64,000 nt of DNA. It comes from Candidatus Poribacteria bacterium. GTDB taxonomy: Bacteria; Poribacteria; WGA-4E; PCPOR2b. Where the stretch lies: contig OZ252032.1 in the NCBI GenBank assembly GCA_965247655.1, positions 5,339,843 to 5,403,842 on the forward strand, read 5' to 3'. A model generated the notes under the pieces. That model was not told the DNA's origin. It ran no database searches and saw only the letters and a list, made by a program, of their open reading frames with translations. How positions within the stretch are numbered: position 1 is the first letter of the stretch; each line of letters begins with the position of its first letter. This document shows, one piece after another, positions 183 through 63,087 of this stretch. The position numbers and the translations under genes were made by a program.

Positions 183-1154
183 TCATTGCTTATCCGATTT
201 GAGATGCCCCCACAATGTGACATAGTTGCCTCGTGTATCAACAAGGAGCGAACGGTCGGGAATCACCCAAGTCGGATACATATCATTGCCCGGGTGAGTG
301 GTAACCTGCCTCGCCTCACCCCCATTGGCGTTAACGACGTGAATATCCCAGCCCGTTTGCCCTCGAAACGACATGAAGGCAATCCACCGCCCATCGGGGG
401 ACCACGCGGGTAAACGGGCTGATTTGGGGTGATTGGTCACTCTGACGATATTGGCACCATCGGCGTTCATCACGTAGATGTCCTGTTGGGCGATATTGTG
501 TAGGTTGGAATAGAAAGCAATCTTTCTCCCGTCGGGTGACCAATCGGGGTGTCGGCCCTTTGGACTCAGTTGTATCCGATTTCTTCCATTTCGGTCCATC
601 ACAAAGATTCCGCCCCCATGAAATGCGATTTTTTCGCCATCGGGAGACCAAGAGGGACCGCCATACTGGTGTTTATCTGCCGCGTTTGTTAGCTGTTTCC
701 AACCATCTCCGTCTGCTTTTATAATACAAATATTTGAACGGATCTCGTCCCGTAGCCGACATGTCAATGTCAACCACTTGCCATCCCCAGACCAAGCAGG
801 AAAAGAAAAATTCATCCCCAATCCTCGCAACCGGGCGGTGATGTTTTTCTGTTTTCCGGTGCGAAGTTCTAATATAAAGAGATTACCTTCTTGTTTGGCG
901 TTGCGCTGACTAAAGGCGACCCATTTGCCATCAGGAGACCATGCCATGCCAGCAGCGTTAGGGGTATGAAGCCACTTTCGCTCGTTAGTACCATCGGCGT
1001 TAATTAGGTAAACCTCCCTTTTTCGACCCTCTCGCTTCGAGTTAAACGCGATGATTCCGGTCGGCTCGGCGGACGCATAATCATAGATCAGTAGAAGAGA
1101 TAGGGCTAGCAGGTGTATCATCAAAAGGGAGTTGATGACAGATTTGAGTTTCAT
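183..1154 (-). CDS. TolB-like WD40-type beta-propeller periplasmic protein (signal peptide)
   Basis: Repeated PxWSPDGKxIAF motifs (AWSPDGKWVAF, PSWSPDGEKIAF, PDWSPDGRKIAF, PAWSPDGRWIAF); hydrophobic N-terminal signal MKLKSVINSLLMIHLLALSLLLIYDYASA. Confidence 0.85.
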   Translation of the reverse strand: MKLKSVINSLLMIHLLALSLLLIYDYASAEPTGIIAFNSKREGRKREVYLINADGTNERKWLHTPNAAGMAWSPDGKWVAFSQRNAKQEGNLFILELRTGKQKNITARLRGLGMNFSFPAWSGDGKWLTLTCRLRDEIRSNICIIKADGDGWKQLTNAADKHQYGGPSWSPDGEKIAFHGGGIFVMDRNGRNRIQLSPKGRHPDWSPDGRKIAFYSNLHNIAQQDIYVMNADGANIVRVTNHPKSARLPAWSPDGRWIAFMSFRGQTGWDIHVVNANGGEARQVTTHPGNDMYPTWVIPDRSLLVDTRGNYVTLWGHLKSDKQ

Positions 1155-4213: not shown

Positions 4214-5095
4214 TCAACGGCAAAGCGCACTGGTCCCTCTGCCCACGCGGGCCCCCCCCCCTGGTCCCGGAAGACGCAGGGTCGGTTTGCCACCTTCGGC
4301 ATCAACAACATAAATCCCAACAGATTCGAGGTCGTTACCTTCCAGCCCCCCAAAGGCAATTTGATCTCCCGCCGGCGACCAAGCGGGACCTTGGCCCGAA
4401 AAAGGTAAGTCTGTTAATTGCCGAATCTTTTTACGTCCTATCATATCCATGATGTAAATTTGCGACTTTCCATTTCGATCTGAACTAAATGCTAACTCGG
4501 TGCCATCGGAGGACCAAGCGGGGTAGTGATCATCCCCCGGATCGACGGTGAGCCGCCTTGGATTCAGTGGATTTATATCAATATTTATATCCATGAGGTA
4601 GATATCCCAATTCCCTTCGGCAAAGAGGTCAGAACGGAAGGCAATCTGAAGACCGTCTGGAGACCAAGTAGGTGACATACTAACCTGTGTTCCATGGATT
4701 TCTTTGCCCTCGCGCGTCTCTACATCAAAGATCCAGAGAGATAGCCCCTTCATTACGGCAATTTGACGTCCATCTGGAGACCAAGCCGGCCGAAAGAACG
4801 TACCGGCAGCAATATTTCTTCGATTTTTCTCGGCATCCATTACAACGAGTCTTCCATCGGATATAAAGGCGAGAAGCGTCCCATCTGGGGACCAGGCGGG
4901 CCAGCTGTCCCGTGCCAAATCGTCAGTCAACTGTATTGGTTCGCCGCCTTTTCCATCAACGACATAAATGTCCATGTTTCCATTTGGGGGGCGACGGGTA
5001 TATGCGAACTTATCTTCAGCCGCTTGTATCTTCATCAATTCAACACCCGGGGCAGTAAAAATCAGTGCCCAGAACAGCAAAGTCAACCCTCTCAT
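4214..5095 (-). CDS. TolB-like beta-propeller periplasmic protein
   Basis: PAWSPDGxxxAF repeats x5; start placed at internal ATG (MRGLTLLFWALIFTAPG signal peptide) preceded by AGGAG RBS, not at the longer ORF start 5239. Confidence 0.8.
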   Translation of the reverse strand: MRGLTLLFWALIFTAPGVELMKIQAAEDKFAYTRRPPNGNMDIYVVDGKGGEPIQLTDDLARDSWPAWSPDGTLLAFISDGRLVVMDAEKNRRNIAAGTFFRPAWSPDGRQIAVMKGLSLWIFDVETREGKEIHGTQVSMSPTWSPDGLQIAFRSDLFAEGNWDIYLMDINIDINPLNPRRLTVDPGDDHYPAWSSDGTELAFSSDRNGKSQIYIMDMIGRKKIRQLTDLPFSGQGPAWSPAGDQIAFGGLEGNDLESVGIYVVDAEGGKPTLRLPGPGGGARVGRGTSALCR

Positions 5096-10451: not shown

Positions 10452-10524
10452 TGGAGCATATCGGACTTGAACCGATGACTTCTTGCATGCCATGCAAGCG
10501 CTCTCCCAACTGAGCTAATGCCCC
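10452..10524 (-). tRNA. tRNA-Ala (anticodon GGC)
   Basis: Minus-strand read GGGGCATTAGCTCAGTTGGGAGAGCGCTTGCATGGCATGCAAGAAGTCATCGGTTCAAGTCCGATATGCTCCA; G3:U70 Ala identity pair, anticodon loop ATGGCAT, T-loop GGTTCAAGTCC; CCA not encoded. Confidence 0.9.
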
Positions 10525-22097: not shown

Positions 22098-22160
22098 GTA
22101 GGCGTTCAGCGACTTGAAAATCTTAAGCGATATTTTGACACTTGAGAGGTTGAATCATCT

Positions 22161-22955
22161 ATGATTAAAATTCATGAAGCCAATCGTCGGCACTGGAATA
22201 ATCAGGCGGCAAGATGGGAGGAACGCTTGAATCGTGATGGACGTTGGCGCAAGTGCCATAAAGAGCCTGAATTGGCATTTGAGGGTGAGACACTTGCCAC
22301 AATCCGAGAGATGGTGGGTGATCTTCACAACAAGCAAGTGTGCGTAATTGGTAGCGGGGATAACATGGCAGCCTATGCACTTTCAGGATTAGGGGCAGCC
22401 GTGACTTCCACAGATATTTCGGAGGAACGATTGAAATTGGCAGCCGATCGTGCAAAAACCCTCGGCGTGTCAATTGATTTTGTTCATTCCGATGCCGCTG
22501 CTCTCGGATTTGCAGACGATTCGACCTTTGATCTTGTCTGCTCCACAAATGGCTTTTTCGTGTGGATTGCCGATCTTGGTGCGGTATTTCGTGAGGTTTC
22601 GAGAGTCCTGAAGCCAGGAGGCGCATACATTTTCTACGACATTCATCCATTCATGCGTCCATGGAAAGAGCAGGTAACGCCTATTGAAATGGCAAAGCCT
22701 TATTGGGACACCGGACCATTTCAAGAGTCCGCGGACGAATCGTACGAGTTTAACTGGACCTTAGCGGATTTGCTTAATCCACTAGTACAAGCAGGGTTGA
22801 CATTGAAAAAAGTTGTCGAAAGCTCAACACAAGATCCCGGATTTTGGCAGGGAAGCAGTGATGCGTCTGACATCGATGAATCATTACTTGATTGGAAAAG
22901 GAATCCCCGTGCTGGATTGCCGGTCTGGCTAACAGTCGCCTGCATCCAAAATTGA
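22161..22955 (+). CDS. Class I SAM-dependent methyltransferase (paralog of 27127..27923)
   Basis: Motif I VCVIGSGDNMAAYALSGLG and motif post-I TSTDISE. Confidence 0.8.
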   Translation: MIKIHEANRRHWNNQAARWEERLNRDGRWRKCHKEPELAFEGETLATIREMVGDLHNKQVCVIGSGDNMAAYALSGLGAAVTSTDISEERLKLAADRAKTLGVSIDFVHSDAAALGFADDSTFDLVCSTNGFFVWIADLGAVFREVSRVLKPGGAYIFYDIHPFMRPWKEQVTPIEMAKPYWDTGPFQESADESYEFNWTLADLLNPLVQAGLTLKKVVESSTQDPGFWQGSSDASDIDESLLDWKRNPRAGLPVWLTVACIQN

Positions 22956-23018
22956 TTAAGGTACGGTTAGCACACAATAGCAAATTACCCGGGTTACTTT
23001 GCGCAAGGAATCCACACA

Positions 23019-23540
23019 ATGATAGAAATACGGGAAGAGCAGCGAGGGGAGTATCAGGAAATCCGTCAGGTTATCGTCGCTGCATTCGGTGGTGACTCCG
23101 AAGAACCCGCAGCCAATGTCGTTGAATTGCTTAGAGACAGAAATAAGGCACCGGTTGCGCTCGTGGCAGTCAGTGACAATAAGATTGTTGGCCATATCAT
23201 GTTTTCGCCGGTTACGATAACACTCGCGCCCAAAGCGTTCTGTGCTGTTGGACTGGCACCCCTATCCGTCCTGCCAGAGTTTCAACGGCAGGGTATTGGC
23301 TCTATGTTGGCACGTGAAGGGTTAAAAAAATGTGCGGCGGCCGGATTTGAGGTCGTAGTCGTGTTGGGAAGTCGCTATTACTACCCACGATTCGGTTTCT
23401 CCCGTGCTAGCCTTTACGGCTTGGGCAATGAATATGACACTGACGAGCATTTCATGGCAATAGAACTGAAGAATGGCGTTCTTGATAAAGTCGGCGGCAC
23501 TGTGCAGTATTCACCAGAATTCAAAGAGTGTGGTTGCTGA
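23019..23540 (+). CDS. GNAT-family acetyltransferase (paralog of 27983..28504)
   Basis: QRQGIGSMLAREGLKKCAAAGFEVVVVLG acetyl-CoA binding core. Confidence 0.8.
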   Translation: MIEIREEQRGEYQEIRQVIVAAFGGDSEEPAANVVELLRDRNKAPVALVAVSDNKIVGHIMFSPVTITLAPKAFCAVGLAPLSVLPEFQRQGIGSMLAREGLKKCAAAGFEVVVVLGSRYYYPRFGFSRASLYGLGNEYDTDEHFMAIELKNGVLDKVGGTVQYSPEFKECGC

Positions 23541-26992: not shown

Positions 26993-27126
26993 ACTTTCGT
27001 CTCTATATAACACCCAATCGCTGCTGCCGCGCTCACACACCTTTGGCTTTGGGCAAACCGCTTTGCGGGTTCAGCCACTTGAAAACCTTAAGCGATATTT
27101 TGATACTTGCGAGGTCGAATCGTCTA

Positions 27127-27923
27127 TGATTAAAATTCATGAAGCCAATCGTCGGCATTGGAATAGTCAAGCACCAACATGGGAGGAACGCTTGAACCGT
27201 GATGGTCGTTGGCGCAGATGTCATAAAGAGCCTGAATTGGCATTTGAGGGCGAAACACTTGCCACAATCCGAGAGATGGTAGGCGATCTTCGCAACAAAC
27301 AGGTGTGTGTAATTGGTAGTGGAGATAACATGGCAGCCTATGCACTTTCAGGATTAGGGGCAGTCGTGACTTCCACAGATATTTCGGAGGAACGATTGAA
27401 ATTGGCAGCAGATCGTGCAGAAATCCTCGGTGTGTCAATCGATTTTGTTCGTTCCGATGCCGCAGATCTCGGATTCGCAGACGATTCGACCTTTGATCTT
27501 GTCTGCTCCACAAATGGCTTTTTCGTGTGGATTGCCGATCCCGGTGCGGTATTTCGTGAGGTTTCAAGAATCCTGAAACCAGGAGGCGCATACGTTTTCT
27601 ACGACATCCATCCATTCATGCGCCCATGGAAAGAGCAGGTGACGCCCATTGAAATGGCGAAGCCTTATTGGGACACTGGACCGTTTCGAGAGTCAGCGGA
27701 CGGATCGTACGAGTTTAACTGGACCTTGGCCGATTTGCTTAATCCGCTGGCACAAACTGGATTGACATTGAAAAAAGTTGTCGAAAGTCCAGCGCAAGAT
27801 CCCGGATTTTGGCAGGGAAGCAGTGATATGTCTAGCACCGATGAATCTTTACTTGATTGGAAAAGGAATCCCCGCGCTGGATTGCCTGTTTGGCTAACAG
27901 TCGCTGCCTCCAGAATTGATTGA
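27127..27923 (+). CDS. Class I SAM-dependent methyltransferase (second copy, about 93 percent identical to 22161..22955)
   Basis: Same motifs as 22161; conserved 50-nt upstream leader. Confidence 0.8.
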
Positions 27924-27982
27924 GGTACGGTCAGAACACAGTGGCAAGTTACCCGGGTTACTTTGCGAAAGGAATCCACACA

Positions 27983-28504
27983 ATGATAGAGATACGGGAA
28001 GAACAGCAAGAGGAGTGTCAGGAAATCCATCAGGTTATCGTCGCTGCATTCGGTGGTGACCCCGAAGAACCCGTAGCCGACGTCGTTGAATTGCTTCGAG
28101 ATAGAAACAAGGCACCGGTTGCGCTTGTGGCAGTCAGGGACAACAAGATTGTCGGTCATATCATGTTTTCACCGGTTACGATAACACTCGCGCCCAAAGC
28201 GTTCCGTGCTGTTGGACTGGCACCCCTATCCGTCCTGCCAGAGTTCCAAAGGCAGGGCATTGGCTCTATGTTGGCACGCGAAGGGTTAAAAAAATGTGCG
28301 GCGGCAGGATTTGAGATAGCAGTCGTGTTGGGAAGTCGCTACTACTACCCACGATTCGGTTTCTCTCGTGCCAGTTTTTACGGCTTGGGCAATGAATATG
28401 ACACTGACGAGCATTTCATGGCAATAGAACTGAAGAATGGCGTTCTTGATAAAGTCAGCGGCACCGTGCAGTATTCGCCAGAATTCAAGGAGTGTGGTTG
28501 CTGA
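27983..28504 (+). CDS. GNAT-family acetyltransferase (second copy, about 93 percent identical to 23019..23540)
   Basis: Near-identical protein sequence to 23019 copy. Confidence 0.8.
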   Translation: MIEIREEQQEECQEIHQVIVAAFGGDPEEPVADVVELLRDRNKAPVALVAVRDNKIVGHIMFSPVTITLAPKAFRAVGLAPLSVLPEFQRQGIGSMLAREGLKKCAAAGFEIAVVLGSRYYYPRFGFSRASFYGLGNEYDTDEHFMAIELKNGVLDKVSGTVQYSPEFKECGC

Positions 28505-37749: not shown

Positions 37750-39747
37750 CTACTCATCACCTTCCACATCATGGGTCACGTACTTGTTGTACCACGCCAA
37801 CTGACGCTTGAGCATATCCAGCTGATGCCGCGGCTCTCCAATGCTATGACCTTCGCGCGGATATTTGACGAATACCGTCTCAACACCGCCAGCTTTGAGC
37901 CCGGCGTAGAATTCCTCCGATTGTGGCAAAGGCACCCGGATATCTTCCTCGCCATGCAGGATGAGGGTTGGGGTTTGAACGCGATCGACATGGCTGATCG
38001 GTGATCGCTCACGGTACAATTCTAAACTCTGTGATGGAGAACCGGCGAAGTAGAGCGACATAAAGTTCGGAATATCGGTTTGTGCATAAAAGCTGACCAG
38101 ATTGATAACGCCACAAACATTACAAGCGGCTTTGAAGCGATCGGTGTGAGTGATAATCCAGCCTGTCATGTAGCCGCCATAGCTTGAACCACCGACGATT
38201 AGACGGTCGGGATCGGCAATCCCCCCCTCAATCAGAAAATCGACACCCGTCATGATGTCCTGATAGTCACCGCCACCCCAGTCATTATAGTTCGCCGTGG
38301 CGAAGCCGTTTCCGTATCCATCCCCACCGCGGAAGTTAGGAGCAAAGTAAGCAAACCCTTCGCCGCTGAAATAGTGCCATGTCGGTTTGAAACCCAAATC
38401 GCGTGAACTACGGGGTCCACCGTGTGGCTCCACAATGAGTGGATAGCTTCTACCCGCTTCATAGCCAACAGGTAAACAGAGCAAACCTTCGATCTCAAGT
38501 CCATCCCTGCTTTGCCATTGAATCACCCGCACTTCGCCGAGTGCGAAGTTTTCTAGTTGTGGATTGAGTTTCGTAAGCTGCTTCATCTCCCCTGTGCGGA
38601 TAGACCCGACCCAAACATCCGTTGGAGCGTAGGGCTCGCTGCGAGTACACAGGAATGTGTCGGCATCATTGGCGATGGAAATCCCGCCAATGACGCAATC
38701 ATCACGGGTGATTTGACGAATTTCGTCCCCTGCTTTGGAAACGGAATAAAGCGGCCAACGCACCCGATCCATTGCGATGAAGTAGATGGTTTCTCCATCT
38801 GGGGACCAGACTGGTGCATCGGCGTTCCGATCGAGCTGGGTGGCGGTCAGGTTTGTTGATGCGCCGCCTGCCGCTGAAATGATGTGAAGATCTTTCTGTC
38901 CATACCGTTCTGGGCTGTGTAAGTATGCGATTTGCCCCCCATCCGGCGACCAACGCGGCGAACTTTCACCGCCGGTGTGCGCTGTCAATTTCCGTACGCT
39001 CTTGGTTTCGATGTCAACGAGGTGAACAATCCCGTTGAACATCATATCATCTGCATTTGGGGAAGGTGCGGAGACAAAGGCAATCTGCTTCCCATCCGCC
39101 GACCACCGCGGCTCGCTGACGTGAAAGTCTCCCGCTGTTAGTCTCTGAGATTTGTCCACATTGACATTCTCATCTGATCCCTCCTCCGGTAAATTAAAGA
39201 GCAATTCAGGTTCATCGTCTAGCGTTTCGACCTCAATAACCCACAGGTGCTGCTGCTTGAAGTCATCTACCCCCATGACTATTCGGTCATCCTTGGCTTT
39301 CTTCCGCTTCTCATCAGCCTCGCTATCCTGCTCTGTCTTGAGAAATGCGATTTGCTTCCCATCAAATGACCATTGCGGATTTGATGCGCCGTTTTTTGTA
39401 TGGGTGAGTTGCTTGGCCTCGCCACCTGTGATCGGAATAATCCAGATCTGCGTTTTGTCGCCGCGCCTTGAGACAAAGGCGAGTTGCGTGCTGTCAGGTG
39501 CCCATTGCGGATTGCTGTCCCCATTGGGACCGTTCGTCAACTGGAACGGTTCACCACCATCGGTTGAAACCAGCCAGATATGACCTCGGTATTCGCTTTT
39601 TTCAGTTTCAAGGACGGGAACAGCGCGGACAAACGCCGCCCATTTACCGTCAGGCGAGATTACTGATCCACTGAGTCCTTTCATCCCGACAATATCCTCC
39701 GGTTGAAGTGTCCTCAGTTCTCGACGTTCTTGCGTGTTGTCAGTCAT
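37750..39747 (-). CDS. S9-family serine peptidase with N-terminal TolB-like beta-propeller (acylaminoacyl/dipeptidyl peptidase-like)
   Basis: Propeller repeats (WSPDG), nucleophile GGSSYGG, Asp in LHGEEDIRVP, His in EGHS. Confidence 0.85.
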   Translation of the reverse strand: MTDNTQERRELRTLQPEDIVGMKGLSGSVISPDGKWAAFVRAVPVLETEKSEYRGHIWLVSTDGGEPFQLTNGPNGDSNPQWAPDSTQLAFVSRRGDKTQIWIIPITGGEAKQLTHTKNGASNPQWSFDGKQIAFLKTEQDSEADEKRKKAKDDRIVMGVDDFKQQHLWVIEVETLDDEPELLFNLPEEGSDENVNVDKSQRLTAGDFHVSEPRWSADGKQIAFVSAPSPNADDMMFNGIVHLVDIETKSVRKLTAHTGGESSPRWSPDGGQIAYLHSPERYGQKDLHIISAAGGASTNLTATQLDRNADAPVWSPDGETIYFIAMDRVRWPLYSVSKAGDEIRQITRDDCVIGGISIANDADTFLCTRSEPYAPTDVWVGSIRTGEMKQLTKLNPQLENFALGEVRVIQWQSRDGLEIEGLLCLPVGYEAGRSYPLIVEPHGGPRSSRDLGFKPTWHYFSGEGFAYFAPNFRGGDGYGNGFATANYNDWGGGDYQDIMTGVDFLIEGGIADPDRLIVGGSSYGGYMTGWIITHTDRFKAACNVCGVINLVSFYAQTDIPNFMSLYFAGSPSQSLELYRERSPISHVDRVQTPTLILHGEEDIRVPLPQSEEFYAGLKAGGVETVFVKYPREGHSIGEPRHQLDMLKRQLAWYNKYVTHDVEGDE

Positions 39748-51424: not shown

Positions 51425-51539
51425 GCAATCAAAGAATGGAAATAGGGGAACAGATTCATAATTTTGAGATAAATTTGCCTCAACGTCTATCAAACTCATC
51501 CAATCACGTTTCATGTTTCACGTTTCATGTATGGAGGCA

Positions 51540-51880
51540 TATTACAGGTCAGCTACCCCGCCCTGAAGGACGGGGCTTGTTGCCCGTCCCGGGACTTACA
51601 GGGTTTTCGGTCTCGGCTCGTAACTTTACACACCCGCCACCGTCCCGAGCAGCTCGGGATTAGAAGCAGCCACAGCGTGTCGGGGACAGCACCGTTTCAA
51701 CTTCCGGGCGAAACCTCAGACAAACAACGTCCCGATCCTATCGGGAGGAGCGAAAAACGAGCGTTTTTCCTAAGTCATCGAGTTACGAGAGAATTATACC
51801 CTATCAACACTTTTTAATCAACAAAAAGGAGGCACAGTGGAGACCCCGCTCTAAAGAACGGGGTCTCCACTGCGAAGATT
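51540..51880 (-). mobile_element. tnpB-less remnant of an IS200/IS605-family element (MITE/PATE-like): RE/tnpB-3' segment plus LE-like hairpin segment
   Basis: 51552-51575 is identical (24/24) to the tnpB 3' end/stop region at 54365-54388 and still encodes ...APSFRAG*; 51826-51877 is homologous to 55741-55798 including TCTCCACTGCGAAGATTTTG and a 10-bp perfect hairpin (51838-51867). Confidence 0.55.
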
Positions 51881-54289
51881 TTGATGAAAGAAGAAACTGG
51901 TGATCTGGCGATTAGCCGACAAGGCAGTCAGGTTATCGCGAAAAACAATCTATTCCAAATCAATTTTGATCTTTCCGAGGGAACCTGGAACTACACCGAT
52001 AAAACGGGTTATAGCATCATCAGGAACGCGTATACGAAGATTATTTTGCAAGATGGGACAGTCCTAACAACACTGGATCCGGGAAGTTCAGAGTTTATTA
52101 CAAGTCCTGCCACCGAAGATGAATCTGGCGTTTACCAACCAATTACATTTGCGCACCAACCCGAAGGGCATGGGGTGCGGACCCATCTCTATCTGAAATG
52201 TTATCCCAGAAAGCCTTATGTTGTATTGACCGTCGGCGTAAAAAACACGCACGAGGCACCAATTACCTTAGAACAGATTTCCACCATTGACGTCTCCCCT
52301 CACAACGGTAAAGCCAAAGGCGGTGTTTATTTAGGAGGTGCACCATCGGGCTATCATACTTTTCTAGACATGAATACACCGATGACATCTGGACTTAAAG
52401 AGATCCACGACGGGTTTCGCATCAACGAAGAGGCTTCGACCACCTCCTGTTACAACGGAGTTCTCTATGACACGGAGAGCAAGCGATCTCTCGTCTTCGG
52501 CTTTTTGAGTTTTCAAAAATGGTGGTCTGCTGTCCAAATGGGATATGATGGAGGCACGCAACAGGGTAAGGAAGAAAACCACGGCGTGAATCACTGGGCT
52601 CTCTACCATAAGTGTGAAAACCATATCTGCCGTCAAGGTGAGGAGGTATACGCTGAGTCTGTTTACTTGAATTTCGCGCATCAGGGGCGGGCGGCATACC
52701 ATGATTACGCCGAGATGGTCGGACGCCGTGTGAAACCAAAATCGCTAAATCGTGTTTTCTCAGGTTGGTGTGCTCAGGATAGTGAGGACAGGACGATAAG
52801 TGCCGCGCAAATTTCCGAACAGATTGAACAGATTACCAAAGACCGATTATCTGACCCATCAATTCCCGGCGGATTTGAGTACATCCAGATTGGAAAGGGT
52901 TGGGAAGCATCAATCGGCAGCTATCAAGCGGATGTGCAGAAGTTTCCAAGTGGGATGAAATCGGTTGCTGACCAGATTCATGCCAAAGGACTAAAAGCCG
53001 GCATCCGATTTACGCCGTTTTGCGTGGAGGCTAGCTCCGAACTCTTGAGAACGCGCTCAGGGTATTTCCTCCAAGAGCGTGGCACAAAGAAGCCTGCCTC
53101 CATCGTTTTGCCGGAAGATGGGAGGGAGGTTGCCGTACTCGATGTATCGCAACCGGGGACGCAGGCGCATATTCGTGAAAATATCCGGAAATTGATTGAT
53201 GAGTGGGGATACGATCTGGTCAAAGCGGATTTACTCGCATACGCAATAGGACCGCTGACAGAACTGAACAACTTTGTGGCACACAACTCATCGCTTACTG
53301 CTGTTGAACTGTATCGCCTCGGGGTTCAGTTACTAAATCAGATTATTGATGACAATGAAAAAGAGGTTGTGCTTGCAGCGTGTAATACATGCCGGGGACC
53401 AAGTATCGGAGACTTTGTGCTGAACGAAACATCTTCAGGTTATGGCGGCTACATCGGCGAAGGGTCTTGGGAGAGTCCGCAAGGGTTAAAACCGATTGTC
53501 AATACCCACGCGGCACATCTTCCGATGTATGGCAACGCATGGACAAATGAGTTTGGCACCCTAAGCATCAACGAACCACTCCCTCTGAATGAAGCACTTA
53601 TTGCAATGACAATGGCAGGAATGAGTGGCGGGGTTGTCACTTGCGGTGATGATTTCACGACACTCAAGCCGGAGCGAGCGGAATTGCTCGCCAAGATTTT
53701 TCCGCTAACTGGTGATTCCGCAATACCTGTTGATCTTTATGAAAACAAATTCCCGCAAATCTGGAATCTACCGGTGATATCTCCCTACGAATCCTACAAT
53801 GTCGTTGGGGTTTTTAACTGGACGAATATAAAGGCAGATGTCGATTTGGCTTTGGATTCGCTCGGTTTAAATCGCTCTCAATATTATCTTGTGCACGATT
53901 TCTGGAACCGTGAATTCCTCGGCAATGTTCGAGAGCGGGTAGCTCTGTTCGATATTCCACCCCGCTCTGTCAAGCTACTGTGTCTACGCGCTGAACAGAA
54001 GGTCCCCCAACTACTCGCTACAGATACTCACCTTACGCAAGGTAGCGTGGATGTCTTGTCCGCCGGCTGGGATAAGCGAAGCCAGAGTTTTTTAGCGGTC
54101 TGCAAGCCCCCTAGGCGCAGCAAAGCAACATTGTTCCTTCATGTACCTGAAGGTTACGCCCCTGCCACAATCGCGTGTTACGGTGCCGACTACCGCTTTC
54201 GTTGGGACAGACAGATCTATGAATTTGAATTCAATTCAAGCACAGCACTCGTACAGGTCAGCGTTCAATTTTCCAAGACATCGGGGTAA
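51881..54289 (+). CDS. Glycoside hydrolase, alpha-galactosidase-like (clan GH-D, GH36/GH27-type)
   Basis: Catalytic-region motifs GIRFTPF and YDLVKADL (KxD); 802 aa. Confidence 0.55.
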   Translation: MMKEETGDLAISRQGSQVIAKNNLFQINFDLSEGTWNYTDKTGYSIIRNAYTKIILQDGTVLTTLDPGSSEFITSPATEDESGVYQPITFAHQPEGHGVRTHLYLKCYPRKPYVVLTVGVKNTHEAPITLEQISTIDVSPHNGKAKGGVYLGGAPSGYHTFLDMNTPMTSGLKEIHDGFRINEEASTTSCYNGVLYDTESKRSLVFGFLSFQKWWSAVQMGYDGGTQQGKEENHGVNHWALYHKCENHICRQGEEVYAESVYLNFAHQGRAAYHDYAEMVGRRVKPKSLNRVFSGWCAQDSEDRTISAAQISEQIEQITKDRLSDPSIPGGFEYIQIGKGWEASIGSYQADVQKFPSGMKSVADQIHAKGLKAGIRFTPFCVEASSELLRTRSGYFLQERGTKKPASIVLPEDGREVAVLDVSQPGTQAHIRENIRKLIDEWGYDLVKADLLAYAIGPLTELNNFVAHNSSLTAVELYRLGVQLLNQIIDDNEKEVVLAACNTCRGPSIGDFVLNETSSGYGGYIGEGSWESPQGLKPIVNTHAAHLPMYGNAWTNEFGTLSINEPLPLNEALIAMTMAGMSGGVVTCGDDFTTLKPERAELLAKIFPLTGDSAIPVDLYENKFPQIWNLPVISPYESYNVVGVFNWTNIKADVDLALDSLGLNRSQYYLVHDFWNREFLGNVRERVALFDIPPRSVKLLCLRAEQKVPQLLATDTHLTQGSVDVLSAGWDKRSQSFLAVCKPPRRSKATLFLHVPEGYAPATIACYGADYRFRWDRQIYEFEFNSSTALVQVSVQFSKTSG

Positions 54290-54480
54290 AACGACGCTGT
54301 ACACCCCGATAGAATCAGGAGATTTCGCTGCGCTCAACACGATACAAAAGGAGGGATTGTCAACTACCCCGCCCTGAAGGACGGGGCCCCCGACAAGTCG
54401 GGATACAAGCACTTGTGATACCGTCCACGGGGGCTTACAGGTTTCGCGCTTCCTTCTCTTTCGAGGGTTTCAGAGCCGTT
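54290..54480 (-). ncRNA. Candidate omega-RNA (reRNA) locus overlapping the tnpB 3' end and right end
   Basis: Position rule for IS200/IS605 TnpB guide RNAs; the segment is conserved in the tnpB-less copy at 51552 and begins next to an 8-bp hairpin (54284-54314). Confidence 0.25.
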
Positions 54481-55800
54481 AGTTACCGGCGTCCCTCCAC
54501 GCAGGGCAGCAGCTGCCCGATTACCAATGTTGATTGCTGCGTTGTGGTCACGGTCAATTATCAACCCACAATCGGGGCAGTAATGGACACGGACAGACAA
54601 CGACTTCTTTACAACCGAACCACACCCTGAGCATTCCTGAGACGTGCCTTGAGGCTTAACTTGCAACAGATGCTTACCAGCTTTTGCAGCTTTGCTTTGC
54701 AGTGTTAAGCGAAAATTACCCCATGCAGCATCAGATATGCTTTTAGAAAGATAGTGGTTTTGAACCATGTTAGTGATTTTCAAGACCTCAACAGCTACCG
54801 CGTCACACTGGGTAAAAAGTTGGTGTGCGGTCTTGTAGTGGAAGTCACGGCGTTGGTTGACAATATGCTCGTGTATCTTGGCAACCCGTTCCCGTTGGTT
54901 ACTATAGCGTCTGCTCCCCTTCTGCCTTTTGGATAACCGACCTTGTGCTTGGCTCAACTTGTGTTCTGATTGACGAAAGTGGCGAGGATTGGCAACCTTA
55001 TCCCCATTGGAAGTGGTTAGAAACGATGCCAAACCGACGTCAATCCCTGTAATCGTTTGGATAGATGCTTCGGGAATCTCAGGTACATCAGGGAGCTGGA
55101 CAGTAATATTTGCATACCAGCCACTGGCTTTCCGTTGTATGGTCAGATTCTTAATTTTGCCATTGGGAAGCGCGCGGTGATAACAAATGGCAACATGCCC
55201 AATCTTGGGCACAACTATCCGAGCCATCCGTTTACGGATATTGCGAATCAACCGTTTAGATAGGTGGCTAAAGGTCATTGAGCGGTATCGGCCTTCACCT
55301 TTGAAGCGTGGGAACCCGGGTGCTTCACCTTTTTCGACACGGACAAAGAACGCTTGATAGGCTTTGTCCAAACGGCGTAAAGTGTCCTGCAAAACATCAC
55401 AGTGCTTGGTTTGCCAGAATTGAGAGACATTGCGAAGTGTGGTCAAATAGGCAGCTTGCGTTCTGTAAGTGATATTTTCCTTGTGCTTGTCGTAGGCTTG
55501 CTTTTTCATATCAAGTGCTTGGTTATAAAGCGTACGACACGCATCAAGCCAAACTTCAAGTGCCTTGCGTTGTTTCATCGTCGGATAAATGCGATATTGA
55601 TATGTTGTTTTCATGGGATTCGGTTTTCTGGATTTCAATCCGGTACTAACGGAGGTGGGAAGCAGCCCGATGGGATCGGGACGTAGTACCTTCCCACGAA
55701 AGCCAACTATAGTATACCATAAAGCCTTTAACAATACATGGAAAAGGAGCGCAGTTTCCTCCCCTCCCTAAAGGGAAGGGATCTCCACTGCGAAGATTTG
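54306..55800 (-). mobile_element. IS200/IS605-family element carrying only tnpB (IS1341-like), about 1.5 kb
   Basis: TnpB ORF flanked by end segments that recur elsewhere in the window (54306-54339 = 56921-56955; 55741-55798 = 51826-51877); no tnpA. Confidence 0.65.
54364..55614 (-). CDS. tnpB: TnpB (OrfB) RNA-guided endonuclease-like transposon protein
   Basis: N-terminal MKTTYQYRIYPT, RuvC-like ITGIDVGL, AVAVEVLK and DRDHNAAINI, zinc finger CSGCG...CPDCG; start at ATG 55614. Confidence 0.85.
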   Translation of the reverse strand: MKTTYQYRIYPTMKQRKALEVWLDACRTLYNQALDMKKQAYDKHKENITYRTQAAYLTTLRNVSQFWQTKHCDVLQDTLRRLDKAYQAFFVRVEKGEAPGFPRFKGEGRYRSMTFSHLSKRLIRNIRKRMARIVVPKIGHVAICYHRALPNGKIKNLTIQRKASGWYANITVQLPDVPEIPEASIQTITGIDVGLASFLTTSNGDKVANPRHFRQSEHKLSQAQGRLSKRQKGSRRYSNQRERVAKIHEHIVNQRRDFHYKTAHQLFTQCDAVAVEVLKITNMVQNHYLSKSISDAAWGNFRLTLQSKAAKAGKHLLQVKPQGTSQECSGCGSVVKKSLSVRVHYCPDCGLIIDRDHNAAINIGNRAAAALRGGTPVTNGSETLEREGSAKPVSPRGRYHKCLYPDLSGAPSFRAG

Positions 55801-56817
55801 ATGAACTATTCTCAAGTATTAAAGGAACTTGAAGGTCTCGTCAATGAGACCTACGGTTTATGGGATCATAACCGTGTTGGATTCCAATGGCGGCACTACA
55901 CATGGAACCACACGATGCGGGTCCGCGCCATGAGCATGGAACTTGGCAGGCGCGAGGGTGGCGACGTCACCAAGCTCGAAGTCGCGGGAACCCTGCACGA
56001 TATCACCAAGCGGTATGATGGTGAAATTTTGTCGGATGAAAACGGCAAGCGGGTCGTTAATCATGACGGACTCTGGCTGAATGAACAACTCACGCCGAGT
56101 CGAGAGAATCTCGTCACCCGGCTTTATGACGAAAACAATCTTGGCGGCACGGTTCACCACGAGTCAGGAGCAGTTGTCACCGAGAAGATACTGGCGATGT
56201 ATGATTTCGATCAGGATTTTGTTGACGCGGTCCGTGCCATTGTGTTAGCACACCTGAAACCGATGAACCTCACCGAGGATCGGTATGATTTCCTCTACGG
56301 AAACGTCGAAAATCAGATTCTCTATGACGCTGACACAATGGATCCAAATGTCGGCTATACCGCATTTTTCCGCAACGTCCACATCCACAGCTATTCCGCT
56401 ATCCGGCGCAACGGCAAGTTCGATCTTGAGGAGTATGTCCAGAGTCTACCTCGCTGGGTCAATTCCAAGCAGGCTTTCGTCGAACATTTATTGACAGAAT
56501 CGGCGAAGGAGATCGGGCAGGCACGACAGGATCGAAACCGGGAGTTGGCGGATCAGATCGCAGCGGAAGCAGGAGATATGGAGACGAATCGAAAATACGG
56601 GCTGCTCGGCGTCATTGAATACTTCGTCAGCGACACCGAAGATCCGCACTTTATGAACCAATTGGCGTATCTCAAGGAGCATTGGATCCCGGAGCGGCAG
56701 AAACAACTCGCTGAGGAAGAAACCACGGAGGCGGCTCGGGATCGTGCGAGTGAGGCGTTGGATCGGGTGATTGATTTCACTAATACGCTTGAGCGGGAGT
56801 ATCAGGGGGAAATTTGA
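55801..56817 (+). CDS. HD-domain phosphohydrolase
   Basis: H...HD motif (HTMRV...VAGTLHDITK); ATG 55801 preferred because the upstream 60 nt is the IS end segment. Confidence 0.65.
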   Translation: MNYSQVLKELEGLVNETYGLWDHNRVGFQWRHYTWNHTMRVRAMSMELGRREGGDVTKLEVAGTLHDITKRYDGEILSDENGKRVVNHDGLWLNEQLTPSRENLVTRLYDENNLGGTVHHESGAVVTEKILAMYDFDQDFVDAVRAIVLAHLKPMNLTEDRYDFLYGNVENQILYDADTMDPNVGYTAFFRNVHIHSYSAIRRNGKFDLEEYVQSLPRWVNSKQAFVEHLLTESAKEIGQARQDRNRELADQIAAEAGDMETNRKYGLLGVIEYFVSDTEDPHFMNQLAYLKEHWIPERQKQLAEEETTEAARDRASEALDRVIDFTNTLEREYQGEI

Positions 56818-56955
56818 GGTAGACAGGCGAGAAGATATGTTTTGATAGGAACGACGATATTCTGTACAACTGAGGGATTGGGGCAACCTAATCCCTCAAT
56901 TTCTCAAACCCTATAGACGCCGCCCCGATAGATTGGGATTTCGCTGCGCTCAACT

Positions 56956-57484: not shown

Positions 57485-60400
57485 GTGCGTATTAGCAGTT
57501 ATCTGTTCCGCCCCCGATGGATCGGGAGGCAAACACCTGTCCGTTTTTGCACACTCGTTGGCTCTTTTTTTCTATTTGGAGTTAGCGTTATTCTGATGTT
57601 AGTTTTTTGCGGAGCAGCATCAGCCGACGAAGACTCGTCAGATGTGAAACCTTACGGAATCGATCGGCGGATCCCGTGGGAGACATCCCGCGTCGTGGGT
57701 GCACCTGATGCCACCGATGATCTCTCAATCTTAGGACGCGAACCGGGGCGGTTTGTGGAGGCAGGAAAAGTAATCTTCAACGGGAAGGGTTCCTGCTATT
57801 CATGCCACACACTAAATCCTTCGGCACTGCCGGGAAGGGGACCGGATCTCACCGATATTGGGGCGCACGCTGCAACCCGAAAACCGGGGATGGGGGCAAA
57901 GGCGTATCTGATCGAATCCCTCTATGACCCAGCCATATTCCTCGTCCATGGGTACGGTAGGATTATGACGCCGGCGTGGAAACCCCCAATCAGTCTGTCA
58001 AATTTAGAGATTGAAACAGTCATCGCATTCCTTCAGAGTCAGGGAGGAGAAGTGAATCTAGCACCGTTTGAACCACCGGTTGATATACAAACCGTTGCAA
58101 GGGAGATGGAGGCACGTCCACTTATCCATGTCGCAGACGCCGAACGAGGGGCGGATGTATTTGTCAATGTCGTAAAATGTATTGCATGTCACGATGTTGA
58201 TAGAGTTGAGAAGCCGGAGGATCAAATCCTCGACGATGGGGTTGAGGTCTTTCCGGGTCCTGACCTAACGGGCATTGCAGCATTAAATAGCATCGGTTAT
58301 ATCGAAGAATCAATTTTGAAACCGAACGCCGAGATTGTGCGCGGATACGGTGTGGCATCCGTTGCAACCGGCGGCGTGGTTCTTCAGGGGACGCTTATCT
58401 CACAGGATAATGAAAAAATCGTTCTGCATATCGAAGGATCGACGGAGCCAACGGAAAGGACGCTCCTTTTGAGCGAGACTGATCCTGAACCCATTGAAGT
58501 GTTGACGGATTTGGCAGAGAAAGGGTATTTTTGGATTCAGGTGACGCCCGCCAATTCGGAACCGATTCGCGGAGATTTCGTCCGAGAGGATGAAGAGACG
58601 GTTACGCTCAAGGTTGAAACTTCCCCCGAAGGGATGCAAACGGTATCAAAATCAAATTTGAAGACCTACGTAACTGTCACCTTATTTGACAGCGAGTCGG
58701 TTGTTGGTACGTCAGTCTCTGAAAACGAGAACCAAATTGTCTTAGAGGTTAGCGGTGTGGAACGAACCATAGATAAATTCGATATTGACGAGGGTCCAAC
58801 CTACAGCCGCGCTTTCGGGAAGCGAATCAATGTGAAATCCGCGATGCCGGATAACTATGCACAACTCCTATCGGTTGATGACCACTACAACCTGCTCGCA
58901 TTCCTATCAACGCTGACCGGCAAAACGTCAGGGTCAGAGTCCGGACCGACTTTATCACTCCGCCCCAAACAGACATTCACTAAATTTCCATTAGATCAAC
59001 CGGTGTATATTGAGCCTGAGCCGGGCACTGACCAACTGCTTGTCATCGAACTAGGGGGTAAGATTCGTCGTTTCAAAGACGATACGGAGGCAGAAAACGC
59101 CGAATTTCTGATTAATACTGGGCGCGAGACTTACGGCTTGACATTCCATCCAAATTACGAAGAAAACGGCTATCTCTATGTTGTCAGCAATGGACCGATA
59201 GGAGGGAAAGTTACTGAGACCAAAAACTATGTTTCGCGCTTTACGGTGGAGCGTCAGTCCCCGTATCGCTGTGATCCGAACTCCGAGCTGATTATCCTAG
59301 AGTGGCAATCGAACAATCACAACGGCGGCGATCTTGCGTTCGGTCCCGATGGATACCTCTACATCTCCGCCGGCGATGGCGCAATGGATTCCGATACCAA
59401 CCTTACCGGTCTTCCCGGAAGCTACGATAGAGATCCCAAGGGGCAAGATCTCAGCAACCTGCCTGCGACAATTATGCGCATTGATGTCGATCATCCGGAG
59501 ATGGAACGCCCCTATTCAATTCCAAGCGATAACCCTTTCGTCCATCTTGAGGGTGCGCGTCCCGAAATTTGGGTCTACGGGATTCGCAACCCTTGGCGAA
59601 TCACCTTCGACCACGAGACCGGGCATCTGTGGGCGGGAAACGTCGGGCAGGATCGGTGGGAGATGATTCATCTGGTACGTCGCGGGGCCAACTACGGCTG
59701 GAGCCTTTACGAAGGCAGCCATCCCTTCTTTCTCAACCGCAAACCGGGGCCCACGCCGGTTGTCAAACCAACGGTCGAACACCCCCACTCCGAAGCCCGT
59801 TCAATCACCGGGGGAGTCGTCTATTATGGCTCAAAGTTTCCCGAATTGCGGGGTGCCTACGTCTACGGCGACTACGCAACTGGAAAGATGTGGGCACTGC
59901 GGCACGACGGAGAGAAACTGATCTGGCATCGGGAAATTGCCGATACAACGCTACAGATCGTGAGTTTCGGCGTTGACCATAACGACGAAATATTAATCGC
60001 AGATCTAGCACGTGGTATCTATCAATTAGAGCGCGAGTCCGAATCTACAGAAAAGTTTCCGACCCGCTTGAGCGAAACGGGCTTATTTATATCAGTGAAA
60101 GACCTTCAGACCGACCCGGGACTGATTCCCTATTCAGTAAACGCACCGCTGTGGGTGGATGGGGCGCACGTAGAACGATTCATCGCCTTACCGGGTGATT
60201 CTCAGATTGAGATGTCGGCTGCCGATGGGGTTGGCTGGAGTTTCCTCGATGAAGCGGCACTGATTCAAACCTTCGCGCTCGATCTGGAAACGGGAAACCC
60301 CACCTCCAGACACCGGATTGAAACACGGCTGCTGACCCGACAACAGGGTGAGTGGGTGGGATATTCTTATATCTGGAACGACGAGCAAACCGACGCAACC

Positions 60401-62127: not shown

Positions 62128-63087
62128 TTACCGCCCCCTGTTTCTTTTTGGGACATAAAACAGAAAGTATCCCCCGCCTCCTGCTCCTAGAATCTTGCCG
62201 CCCAGCGCACCCGCAGTGATAGCACGCTCATAGATGGTATCCAGCTTATGGTTTGAAATGCTATCACAGAGGGTGCGCTTCAGCTGCCAAGCACGATGTA
62301 ACAGATGTCCAACCTCATAGAGGCAATCCCCCGATAGATCGGCGTCTTCGTCCCGACGTGTCGGGGGATTAAGAAACTCGCGGTTGCCCTCGACGAGGAC
62401 ATCATAAAACGTAGGCACAAGTCCCTTGATTTCCAGAAGCGTCTGGGGACTCGCATCACGTTTCTGTTCGTGTAGGATGGTCTCGGCGCATCGTTGAATC
62501 CCTGTATAGAACAGGATGAAATTTTCTTCCAAATACGCTATCGTTTCGGGGATTACTGGGATGTCTTGTATGTGGACACTCTCATCTCTGTTAAACTGAA
62601 TCCGCCTCAACCCGCCGTAGGCGGCGATATACTGATCTTGCTTCCCGATAGGTTGGTTCAAGCGTTCTATCTCAATCTCGCACGCTTGATGCGCTAGGCT
62701 TTCCGGTGACATTTCAATTCCTTGATAGGCGTACAGCGCATTGAGTAATCCGACGGTTAATGCACTTGACGATCCCAATCCACAGCCGCGCGAGGGGACA
62801 TCAGATGTCACTGTGATGGATAGTCCACCCCCGCTAGCGGGGGGGAAGGTTTTCCGCACCGTTTCTCTAATCAGAGGATGCTGGATGTAGTCAGGGTCAG
62901 AAACCGTTTCATGGCGATCTGGAGTGTTGATAGCAATTTGAGAATTTTGCTCCCTTGTGATGTGGACGGTGATATATTTGTCAATAGCGGTGCTGATGAC
63001 CTCTCCACCATATTGCCGATAAAAGTTGGAGATATCGGTTCCGCCCCCAACAAAACTGATGCGTATCGGTGTGAGCGAAATAATCAT
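62128..63087 (-). CDS. GHMP-family sugar kinase
   Basis: GHMP motif PSRGCGLGSSSALTVG; operon with the nucleotidyltransferase. Confidence 0.75.
   Translation of the reverse strand: MIISLTPIRISFVGGGTDISNFYRQYGGEVISTAIDKYITVHITREQNSQIAINTPDRHETVSDPDYIQHPLIRETVRKTFPPASGGGLSITVTSDVPSRGCGLGSSSALTVGLLNALYAYQGIEMSPESLAHQACEIEIERLNQPIGKQDQYIAAYGGLRRIQFNRDESVHIQDIPVIPETIAYLEENFILFYTGIQRCAETILHEQKRDASPQTLLEIKGLVPTFYDVLVEGNREFLNPPTRRDEDADLSGDCLYEVGHLLHRAWQLKRTLCDSISNHKLDTIYERAITAGALGGKILGAGGGGYFLFYVPKRNRGR

What the first reader, a model, noticed from the sequence alone, without database searches (positions are those of the whole stretch)
54290..55810. IS200/IS605-family tnpB-only element with conserved end segments and a candidate omega-RNA
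Four features support this.
- A complete TnpB lies on the minus strand at 54364..55614. It has a RuvC-like catalytic triad and a CxxC...CxxC zinc finger, and there is no tnpA.
- Its flanks are element ends. On the tnpB-3' side, the 24-mer CTACCCCGCCCTGAAGGACGGGGC (54365-54388) and a 35-nt segment (54306-54339) recur elsewhere in the window. On the tnpB-5' side, a roughly 55-nt segment ending TCTCCACTGCGAAGATTTG (55741-55798) also recurs.
- In characterised TnpB systems the guide omega-RNA is transcribed from the tnpB 3' end through the right end. That corresponds here to the minus strand of about 54290-54480.
- The TnpB C-terminus extends about 50 aa beyond the last RuvC motif (...CLYPDLSGAPSFRAG) into the conserved segment, as expected where protein-coding and RNA-scaffold sequences overlap.
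Basis: partly seen in the sequence, partly recalled or inferred. Interest (0 to 1): 0.8.

Follow-up and report, generated by a model that had tools for sequence, protein, structure and literature searches.

The report
TnpB-only insertion sequence plus mini copy
This is an ordinary, intact TnpB-only IS200/IS605 insertion sequence in a Candidatus Poribacteria genome, with a guide-RNA scaffold at its 3' end and a 336-bp gene-less sister copy nearby; both sit exactly between a host gene's ribosome-binding site and its start codon.

Summary
Window 54359..55800 (minus strand, 1442 bp) is a non-autonomous IS200/IS605 (IS1341-type) element. It carries an intact TnpB (54364..55614), hairpin ends and no tnpA.

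- **Guide RNA:** a covariance model built only from 26 Poribacteria relatives hits 54359-54531 (104.7 bits, E=7.5e-25). 18 of 26 base pairs show compensatory changes.
- **Second copy:** 51548..51883 (336 bp) keeps the left end, a promoter-like site, a shortened guide-RNA scaffold (61.6 bits) and the right end. It has no gene, so it is a PATE-like mini element.
- **Exact ends:** a syntenic contig from a close relative (L081) lacks both insertions. There is no target duplication, and insertion is 3' of TTCAT, the complement of the host start ATGAA. The element ends in TTGAC (full copy) or CTGAC (mini copy).

Corrections:
- The right end is at 54359, not about 54290.
- The RNA spans about 54343-54531.
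- This copy has a unique 25-nt insert in the scaffold.

Both copies lie between a Shine-Dalgarno sequence and the ATG. The TTCAT target plus selection against insertions inside genes probably explains this.

Verdict: new member of a known kind, modest interest.

The parts
54359..55800 (-). Full element, 1442 bp. It runs from the left end (5'-CAAATCTTCGCAG...) to the right end (...GGGGTAGTTGAC-3').
   Evidence: Empty-site comparison with L081. L081 reads 'aaaggaggctct|ATGAACTAT'; the window reads 'aaaggagggatt[element]ATGAACTAT'. There is no target-site duplication.
55801..55805 (-). Target/TAM 5'-TTCAT-3'. This is host DNA and is the complement of ATGAA, the start codon plus two bases of the HD-domain gene (55801..56817).
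   Evidence: TCAT precedes the left end in 20 relatives. Orthologues of the HD protein are 336-338 aa at 100% coverage, so this ATG is the true start.
55742..55800 (-). Left end. It comprises 8 nt (CAAATCTT), then an imperfect hairpin, then CTCCTTTT. Outer stem: 55787-55792 with 55750-55755. Inner stem: 55773-55781 with 55760-55768.
   Evidence: ssDNA fold -14.2 kcal/mol, z=-2.6. The hairpin keeps pairing through sequence changes between copies.
55706..55734 (-). Promoter-like site for tnpB: TTGTTA, 17 nt, TATAGT.
   Evidence: Consensus scan, 9 of 12 matches. The mini copy has one at the homologous position. This is a prediction only.
54364..55614 (-). tnpB coding sequence, 416 aa, intact.
   Evidence: It is 94-95% identical to Poribacteria homologues.
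54359..54531 (-). Candidate omega-RNA scaffold, five helices. It overlaps the last 56 codons of tnpB and the right end.
   Evidence: Model R1, built from relatives only, scores 104.7 bits, E=7.5e-25. 98.8% of cells are paired and 18 of 26 pairs show compensatory change.
54387..54411 (-). 25-nt insert (UGCUUGUAUCCCGACUUGUCGGGGG) in the scaffold. It is unique to this copy and shifts the tnpB frame for the last codons.
   Evidence: Absent from all 28 relatives in alignment A3. Treated as an insertion by R1. The C-terminal tail differs from L001.
54367..54386 (-). Right-end hairpin CCCCGTCC-TTCA-GGGCGGGG.
   Evidence: Compensatory changes occur in helix 5.
54359..54363 (-). Last five bases of the element, TTGAC (transposon-encoded motif, TEM).
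   Evidence: TGAC is invariant and YTGAC is present in all 28 relatives. Similarity stops exactly here.
54343..54358 (-). Predicted guide, AAUCCCUCCUUUUGUA. This is host DNA, and the 16-nt length is assumed by analogy. It is antisense to the displaced Shine-Dalgarno region of the HD gene.
   Evidence: The position follows from the right-end boundary and the known TnpB architecture (Meers et al. 2023). It is inferred, not shown.
51548..51883 (-). Mini element, 336 bp, with no gene on its own strand. It runs left end, promoter-like site, shortened omega-RNA-like scaffold, right end ending CTGAC.
   Evidence: Empty site in L081: 'ggaggcatattaccg|ATGAAAGAAG'. There is no ORF of 30 aa or more on the minus strand. 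No TnpB remnant is detectable beyond the right end.
51833..51874 (-). Left-end hairpin of the mini copy, a 19-bp stem.
   Evidence: ssDNA fold -22.2 kcal/mol, z=-7.3. It is also flagged as terminator-like with the tail CCTCCTTTTT.
51793..51821 (-). Promoter-like site of the mini copy: TTGATT, 17 nt, TATAAT.
   Evidence: 10 of 12 matches. This is a prediction only.
51548..51668 (-). Omega-RNA-like scaffold of the mini copy. Helices 1, 2 and 5 are kept; helices 3 and 4 are shortened.
   Evidence: R1 scores 61.6 bits, E=5e-14.
51884..51888 (-). Target/TAM TTCAT of the mini copy. It is the complement of ATGAA at the start of the 801-aa melibiase-family gene (51884..54289).
   Evidence: The orthologue in L081 is also 801 aa.

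Best explanation
Window 54359..55800 (minus strand) is a non-autonomous IS200/IS605-family insertion sequence of the tnpB-only (IS1341) type, in a Candidatus Poribacteria genome.

**Shown here**
- The TnpB is intact, with HTH, RuvC D-E-D and zinc-ribbon features.
- Both ends carry subterminal hairpins.
- Insertion is 3' of TTCAT without target duplication.
- The element ends in TTGAC.
- A conserved, covarying five-helix RNA scaffold covers the last 56 codons of tnpB and the right end.
- A second, 336-bp copy (51548..51883) lacks tnpB but keeps both ends, a promoter-like site and a shortened scaffold.

**Inferred from characterised relatives (ISDra2, ISGst2)**
- A Y1 TnpA encoded elsewhere excises and inserts the single-stranded element by recognising the end hairpins.
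- The tnpB transcript is processed into an omega RNA whose 3' guide (about 54343-54358) is the flanking host sequence.
- TnpB with this RNA cuts the TTCAT-plus-flank joint left by excision, and recombination then restores the element.
- The mini copy would borrow both TnpA and TnpB in trans.
For: - **Protein:** Pfam and NCBIfam matches. ISDra2 TnpB matches at E=1.1e-56 with the catalytic D/E/D and CxxC...CxxC aligned.
- **Family:** 5244 homologues at E<=1e-30. The closest are 57-95% identical and come from Poribacteria genomes.
- **Ends:** the right end ...GGGTARYTGAC is in all 28 full relatives. The left end CAAATCTTCGCAGTGGAG plus hairpin, preceded by TCAT, is in most.
- **Exact boundaries and recent mobility:** the syntenic contig L081 (HD orthologue 94% identical) has the same cupin-melibiase-HD gene order with neither insertion.
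- **RNA:** RNAalifold predicts 26 pairs. Model R1, built without window sequences, hits both window copies and only Poribacteria elements among 49 sources. 98.8% of cells are paired, 18 of 26 pairs are compensatory, and the covariation score is 0.339 against 0.132 for shuffles and at most 0.066 for slid controls.
- **Link to Y1 TnpA:** TnpA lies beside tnpB in 11 more distant relatives.
- **Literature framework:** about 75% of tnpB genes lack a nearby tnpA, PATEs often encode omega RNAs, and TAM and TEM differ at positions 3 and 5 (Meers et al. 2023). Here TTCAT and TTGAC differ at those same positions.
Against: - No transcript data exist, so RNA expression, RNA ends and guide length are inferred.
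- No TnpA was found in the window or in the 2.5-kb flanks of any Poribacteria relative, so current mobility is unproven.
- This copy has a unique 25-nt insert in the scaffold that might impair the RNA.
- Single-sequence folding is not exceptional (z=-1.8 and -1.0).
- No Rfam family reaches its threshold.
- The A5 alignment was fitted to the model, which favours pairing counts.
- An alternative helix competes with the right-end hairpin, so the 3' fold is not settled.
- The narrow NCBIfam IS200_TnpB model scores 294 bits against a cutoff of 425.
Confidence: 0.9

Rival explanations
1. The identity is the same, but this copy is a stranded or decaying relic. The 25-nt insert disables the omega RNA and no TnpA is available, so the element neither moves nor homes.
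For: - The insert is unique among 29 full copies and lowers the model score to 104.7 bits, against 132.5 for the closest relative L001.
- No TnpA was found in the window or in Poribacteria flanks.
- Several relatives are pseudogenes (L017, L024, L027, L019).
Against: - The tnpB frame is open, with all catalytic residues intact.
- The insert folds as two small self-contained hairpins between conserved helices and leaves all five helices intact.
- The site is empty in a relative whose HD orthologue is 94% identical, so the insertion is evolutionarily recent.
- The 90%-identity protein cluster of the closest homologue holds 227 member sequences.
Confidence: 0.25
2. It is a domesticated TnpB (TldR-like RNA-guided regulator) or a miniature type V CRISPR effector, not a transposon passenger.
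For: - The predicted guide is antisense to the 5' leader and Shine-Dalgarno sequence of a host gene.
- There are weak partial matches to the C2c8 and Cas12f2 NCBIfam models.
Against: - The RuvC triad is intact, whereas TldRs are nuclease-dead.
- The gene sits inside complete left and right ends and is absent from the syntenic site of a close relative.
- The guide position is simply the flank of the insertion.
- The window has no CRISPR-like repeat array.
- The Cas model scores are far below their cutoffs: 136 against 350, and 52 against 450.
Confidence: 0.03
3. It is an IS607-type element moved by a serine recombinase.
For: The NCBIfam IS607_TnpB model gives a partial hit, E=2.4e-47.
Against: - That score is 161.9 bits against a cutoff of 350.
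- The ends are subterminal hairpins, and insertion is 3' of a pentanucleotide without duplication.
- Distant relatives carry Y1 TnpA, not a serine recombinase.
Confidence: 0.02

Closest known systems
ISDra2 TnpB and its omega RNA (Deinococcus radiodurans; PDB 8bf8, 8h1j, 8exa)
   Same: - Same domain order and catalytic residues, E=1.1e-56 over residues 5-373.
- The RNA scaffold overlaps the 3' end of tnpB and the right end, with the guide in the flank.
- A 5-nt TAM lies 5' of the left end.
   Different: - ISDra2 carries its own tnpA; this element does not.
- The TAM is TTCAT rather than TTGAT (the ISDra2 TAM is from my own knowledge).
- The RNA sequence is unrelated at the level of Rfam or R1 searches.
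Geobacillus stearothermophilus ISGst elements and their PATEs (Meers et al. 2023, 10.1101/2023.03.14.532601)
   Same: - tnpB-only non-autonomous copies sit beside gene-less PATE-like copies that keep the ends and an omega RNA.
- The TAM/TEM logic matches: TAM and TEM differ at positions 3 and 5.
- TnpB and IscB elements share ends.
- TTCAT is the TAM of ISGst5.
   Different: - The phylum differs, and the left-end and RNA sequences differ.
- In ISGst5 the TTCAT element carries IscB, not TnpB.
- TnpA activity is shown there and is only inferred here.
IS1341-type tnpB 3' sense-overlapping transcripts (sotRNAs; Rfam sot0042 RF02656; PMC4615843)
   Same: A non-coding RNA overlaps the 3' end of a tnpB-only element.
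   Different: There is only a chance-level partial match: 16.4 bits against a gathering score of 88, E=0.47, limited to the terminal hairpin.
IS608 (Helicobacter pylori), the mechanistic model for Y1 TnpA transposition
   Same: - Subterminal hairpins at both ends.
- Insertion 3' of a short conserved target without duplication.
- The left-end hairpin lies close to the target.
   Different: - IS608 encodes TnpA (2a6m); none is found here.
- I could not assign the DNA 'guide' bases that pair with TTCAT and TTGAC.

Membership tests
IS200/IS605 family, tnpB-only (IS1341) type | TnpB protein with HTH, RuvC-like and zinc-ribbon domains | tested here: met
   Pfam PF12323, PF01385 and PF07282 all score above their cutoffs. 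NCBIfam guided_TnpB scores 309.9 bits against a cutoff of 100.
IS200/IS605 family, tnpB-only (IS1341) type | RuvC catalytic D-E-D and CxxC...CxxC intact | tested here: met
   In the alignment to ISDra2 TnpB 8bf8, GIDVG aligns with GVDVG, AVEVL with GTEHL, and IDRDHNAA with HDRDENAA.
IS200/IS605 family, tnpB-only (IS1341) type | Subterminal imperfect hairpins at both ends, no terminal inverted repeats | tested here: met
   Folds of the left and right ends. The hairpins are conserved through compensatory changes in relatives.
IS200/IS605 family, tnpB-only (IS1341) type | Insertion 3' of a conserved 4-5 nt target, no target-site duplication | tested here: met
   Empty against occupied sites for both copies. 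TCAT or TCAC sits 5' of the left end in relatives.
IS200/IS605 family, tnpB-only (IS1341) type | Y1 (HUH) TnpA transposase, in the element or in trans | tested here: not met
   No TnpA in the element, in the 64-kb window, or in the flanks of 29 Poribacteria loci. The positive control found it in 11 distant relatives. Absence from the element is what defines the non-autonomous type. Presence elsewhere in the genome cannot be tested from one window.
TnpB omega-RNA system | Conserved structured RNA overlapping the tnpB 3' end and running to the right-end boundary | tested here: met
   R1 hit at E=7.5e-25, built without window sequences. 18 of 26 pairs are compensatory.
TnpB omega-RNA system | The RNA is expressed and processed, with a flank-derived guide | not testable with these tools
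   This needs small-RNA sequencing. The guide at 54343-54358 is inferred from the boundary.
TnpB omega-RNA system | TAM-dependent, RNA-guided DNA cleavage | not testable with these tools
   This needs an interference or TAM-depletion assay.
PATE (palindrome-associated transposable element), for the copy at 51548..51883 | Both IS200/IS605 ends present with no protein-coding gene | tested here: met
   The copy is 336 bp and is bounded by the empty-site comparison. No ORF of 30 aa or more lies on its own strand. No TnpB remnant is detectable.
Rfam families (sot0042, HEARO) | Score at or above the gathering threshold | tested here: not met
   sot0042 scores 16.4 against 88, and HEARO scores 15.6 against 83. 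Nothing apart from a tRNA reaches gathering in the window.

The most novel reading that the evidence does not exclude
This element family may be adapted to live at gene starts.
- Its target TTCAT is the complement of ATGAA, so about half of the copies sit exactly between a host gene's Shine-Dalgarno sequence and its ATG.
- On its outward strand, the left end carries a conserved A-rich AGGAG/AGAGG motif directly 5' of the left-end hairpin, and the hairpin is followed by 8 nt and then the host ATG.
- If the hairpin forms in the mRNA, it would bring this transposon-borne ribosome-binding site into register with the host start codon and replace the displaced one.
- That would keep the host gene translatable and make such insertions tolerable.
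Probability: 0.12. Interest if true: 0.6.

Novelty: new member of a known kind. Interest (0 to 1): 0.3.

Why it matters
- It adds a well-delimited TnpB/omega-RNA pair from a little-studied phylum. Left end, right end, TAM (TTCAT), TEM (TTGAC) and an empty site are all defined, and no paper in the searched library mentions Poribacteria together with TnpB.
- It comes with a natural gene-less RNA-only partner.
- It gives 28 related elements for scaffold engineering.
- It does not change how these systems are understood.
- The placement between ribosome-binding site and start codon is the only feature that could lead somewhere new. The insertion displaces the native ribosome-binding site of both flanking genes, a melibiase-family gene and an HD-domain gene.

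Tried and rejected
- **Exact-protein look-ups:** TnpB, the HD protein and the melibiase protein are not on record, so the source genome could not be retrieved. The HD homologue search was used instead.
- **Rfam:** no family reaches threshold. The sot0042 and HEARO partial hits are chance-level.
- **The 35-nt 'end segment':** rejected as part of the element, because it is present in the empty site.
- **Longer TTG-start ORF to 55734 (456 aa):** rejected. Homologues begin at the ATG (query residue 1 in 25 of the 29 Poribacteria loci), and the extension would run into the promoter-like region.
- **Start-codon targeting as a significant bias:** 10 of 21 sites compare with 23% of all ATGAA sites (p=0.012). 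Against a null without intragenic sites (34%), p=0.14. It is not established. The start-like criterion is rough.
- **Left-end 21-mer scan of JGI metagenomes:** no hits.
- **DNA 'guide' bases pairing with TAM and TEM:** I tried to assign them by analogy with IS608 and found no convincing register.
- **Other copies of the mini element:** only its ends match in the fetched loci.
- **Single-sequence folding:** uninformative.
Full report
**1. What is in the sequence**

The minus-strand ORF 54364..55614 (416 aa) is present as described. It matches Pfam HTH_OrfB_IS605, OrfB_IS605 and Cas12f1-like_TNB. It passes the NCBIfam guided_TnpB model, 309.9 bits against a cutoff of 100. The narrower IS200_TnpB and IS607_TnpB models fall below their cutoffs.

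Against solved structures the best natural match is ISDra2 TnpB (8bf8/8h1j, E about 1e-56). The RuvC D, E and D positions and the CxxC...CxxC motif are aligned and conserved.

The left-end 19-mer lies at 55782-55800 and recurs at 51864-51882 with one mismatch. So both ends recur together about 3 kb away, in the same orientation.

**2. Organism and relatives**

TnpB has thousands of homologues. The closest (57-95% identical) come from Candidatus Poribacteria genomes.

- All 28 full-length Poribacteria loci end in ...GGGTARYTGAC, and similarity stops there.
- Most begin with CAAATCTTCGCAGTGGAG plus a hairpin, preceded by TCAT. One subfamily has TCAC instead.
- In every locus where the left end was found, it lies only about 80-250 nt upstream of tnpB, which leaves no room for tnpA.
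- tblastn with IS608 TnpA (sequence verified as 2a6m) finds no Y1 transposase in the window or in any Poribacteria locus. It does find one beside tnpB in 11 more distant relatives.

The family therefore belongs with Y1-TnpA elements, but these copies are non-autonomous.

**3. Exact boundaries**

The exact proteins of the window are not in the gene index. The HD-domain protein downstream has a 94%-identical orthologue on contig L081. L081 shows the same cupin-melibiase-HD-DUF2203 gene order with short intergenic spacers.

| Site | L081 (empty) | Window (occupied) |
|---|---|---|
| HD gene start | aaaggaggctct\|ATGAACTAT | aaaggagggatt[54359..55800]ATGAACTAT |
| Melibiase gene start | ggaggcatattaccg\|ATGAAAGAAG | ggaggcatattacag[51548..51883]ATGAAAGAAG |

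From this:
- The full element is 1442 bp and the second copy is 336 bp.
- There is no target duplication.
- Both copies inserted 3' of TTCAT on the element strand.
- The full copy ends in TTGAC and the mini copy in CTGAC.

It is therefore host intergenic DNA and not an element end.

**4. The RNA**

An alignment of the last 150-220 nt of 28 relatives shows several stems with visible compensatory changes. RNAalifold predicts five helices.

I built covariance model R1 from 26 relatives, leaving out both window copies.

- It hits 54359-54531 (minus) at 104.7 bits, E=7.5e-25.
- It hits 51548-51668 (minus) at 61.6 bits, E=5e-14.
- There is nothing else in the window.
- Across 49 sources it hits only the Poribacteria elements. 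These include two loci that were not used for training.

On the resulting alignment:
- 98.8% of cells are paired.
- 18 of 26 pairs show changes on both sides.
- The covariation score is 0.339, against 0.132 for shuffles and at most 0.066 when partners are slid.

Caveats:
- That alignment was fitted to the model.
- A competing helix between an upstream segment and the 5' arm of the right-end hairpin is also supported, 93% paired with two compensatory pairs. The fold of the last 60 nt is therefore unsettled.
- Single-sequence folding energies are unremarkable.
- No Rfam family reaches threshold.

The scaffold overlaps the last 56 codons of tnpB. In most relatives the ORF stops at the TGA inside the terminal TTGAC.

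This copy carries a unique 25-nt insert (54387-54411) between conserved helices. It shifts the frame, so the ORF ends at TAG with a different 15-aa tail. Whether the insert harms the RNA is unknown.

**5. Other anatomy**

- The left end forms a long imperfect hairpin in single-stranded DNA. It is followed by CTCCTTTT. In the mini copy this is flagged as terminator-like for incoming transcription.
- Promoter-like sites lie at homologous positions in both copies: TTGTTA-17-TATAGT at 55734-55706 and TTGATT-17-TATAAT at 51821-51793.
- The mini copy has no ORF on its own strand and no TnpB remnant. Its left end and right-end-proximal 60 nt resemble the L001-L008 lineage at 78-91%. It is a PATE-like relative, not a deletion of the neighbouring full copy.

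**6. How it most likely works**

The identity and anatomy are shown. The mechanism is inferred from ISDra2 and the Geobacillus elements (Meers et al. 2023).

- A Y1 TnpA supplied in trans would recognise the end hairpins and move the single-stranded element to TTCAT sites.
- TnpB with its omega RNA, guided by the right-end flank (about 54343-54358, AAUCCCUCCUUUUGUA), would cut the TTCAT-plus-flank joint left by excision, so that recombination restores the element.
- The mini copy would depend on both proteins in trans.
- TAM TTCAT and TEM TTGAC differ at positions 3 and 5, the same positions as TTTAT and TTCAC in ISGst2.

**7. Insertion at gene starts**

Both window copies sit exactly between a Shine-Dalgarno sequence and the ATG of a host gene. 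Orthologues confirm these ATGs as the true starts.

Among 21 independent TTCAT-type insertions, 10 have the target's CAT as the ATG of an ORF of at least 100 codons pointing away from the element.

- This exceeds the rate for all ATGAA sites (23%, p=0.012).
- It does not exceed a null in which intragenic sites are removed (34%, p=0.14).

The simplest reading is that a TTCAT target, plus selection against insertions inside genes, produces the pattern.

One loose end remains. The outward strand of the left end carries a conserved A-rich AGGAG/AGAGG motif directly before the hairpin, and the hairpin is followed by 8 nt and then the host ATG. This could act as a replacement ribosome-binding site. 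However, the motif is also conserved in the TTCAC subfamily, which does not sit at gene starts. I rate this idea at about 12%.

**8. Wider context**

The right-end 22-mer CCTTYAGGGYGGGGTARYTGAC occurs in at least 120 metagenome contigs.

- It lies next to very divergent TnpBs on the same strand.
- It lies next to IscB (RRXRR plus HNH) on the opposite strand.

Sharing of ends between TnpB and IscB elements is already documented in Geobacillus.

**9. Verdict**

The kind of system is well known, and this is a new, cleanly delimited member from Poribacteria. No paper in the searched library mentions Poribacteria together with TnpB. Interest is modest.

Noticed in passing
window 54304-54338 and 56923-56954; L081 3918-3975: A short host intergenic repeat, CCCCGAT..ATCGGGATTTCGCTGCGCTCAAC, occurs downstream of two different genes in the window. 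It occurs twice in tandem in the empty site of the relative. Its nature is unknown. It is not part of the insertion sequence.
   Followed up: partly
window 51731-51745, 54389-54402, 55666-55680, 57513-57526, 62352-62365; also L005/L007 helix 4 and the L029 left end: Small palindromes CCCGAY-N(1-6)-RTCGGG occur 5 times in the window, against 0.125 expected from Markov shuffles. Three lie inside the two element copies, including within the 25-nt insert in the RNA scaffold. This looks like a recurrent hairpin-forming insert.
   Followed up: partly
window 54340-54358 with 55801, and 51528-51547 with 51884: Both element copies split a host Shine-Dalgarno sequence from its ATG (AAGGAGGgatt|ATG and GGAGGcatattacag|ATG). 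10 of 21 related insertions are at start codons. The outward strand of the left end has a conserved AGGAG-like motif next to the hairpin.
   Followed up: partly
L084-L203 (metagenome contigs): The right-end 22-mer is shared by at least 120 contigs from diverse environments. It lies next to very divergent TnpBs and, on the opposite strand, next to IscB (RRXRR plus HNH) genes. This probably explains the weak HEARO hit on the plus strand at 51548-51629.
   Followed up: partly
alignment A4 columns 113-118 with 138-145 (window about 54379-54386 with 54418-54423): A helix between an upstream GGACGG-like segment and the 5' arm of the right-end hairpin is 93% paired, with two compensatory pairs. It is mutually exclusive with the hairpin. 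One possibility is an RNA fold that differs from the DNA fold.
   Followed up: partly
L012, L024, L028: Three different Poribacteria genomes carry the TTCAC-subfamily element at the same flanking sequence on both sides. This looks like an orthologous, vertically inherited insertion. L024 is a pseudogene.
   Followed up: no
window 22104-23239 and 27069-28203: Two segments at least 300 nt long are repeated at 91% identity with a spacing of about 4965 nt. This is probably a duplicated gene pair.
   Followed up: no
window 316-1017, 4355-4900, 38795-39513: There are families of short, diverged direct repeats (for example CCATCNGGNGACCA) spaced about 110-290 nt apart. They look like repeated protein motifs within genes.
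   Followed up: no
window 10452-10524 (minus): The only Rfam gathering-level hit in the window is a tRNA, 64.7 bits.
   Followed up: no
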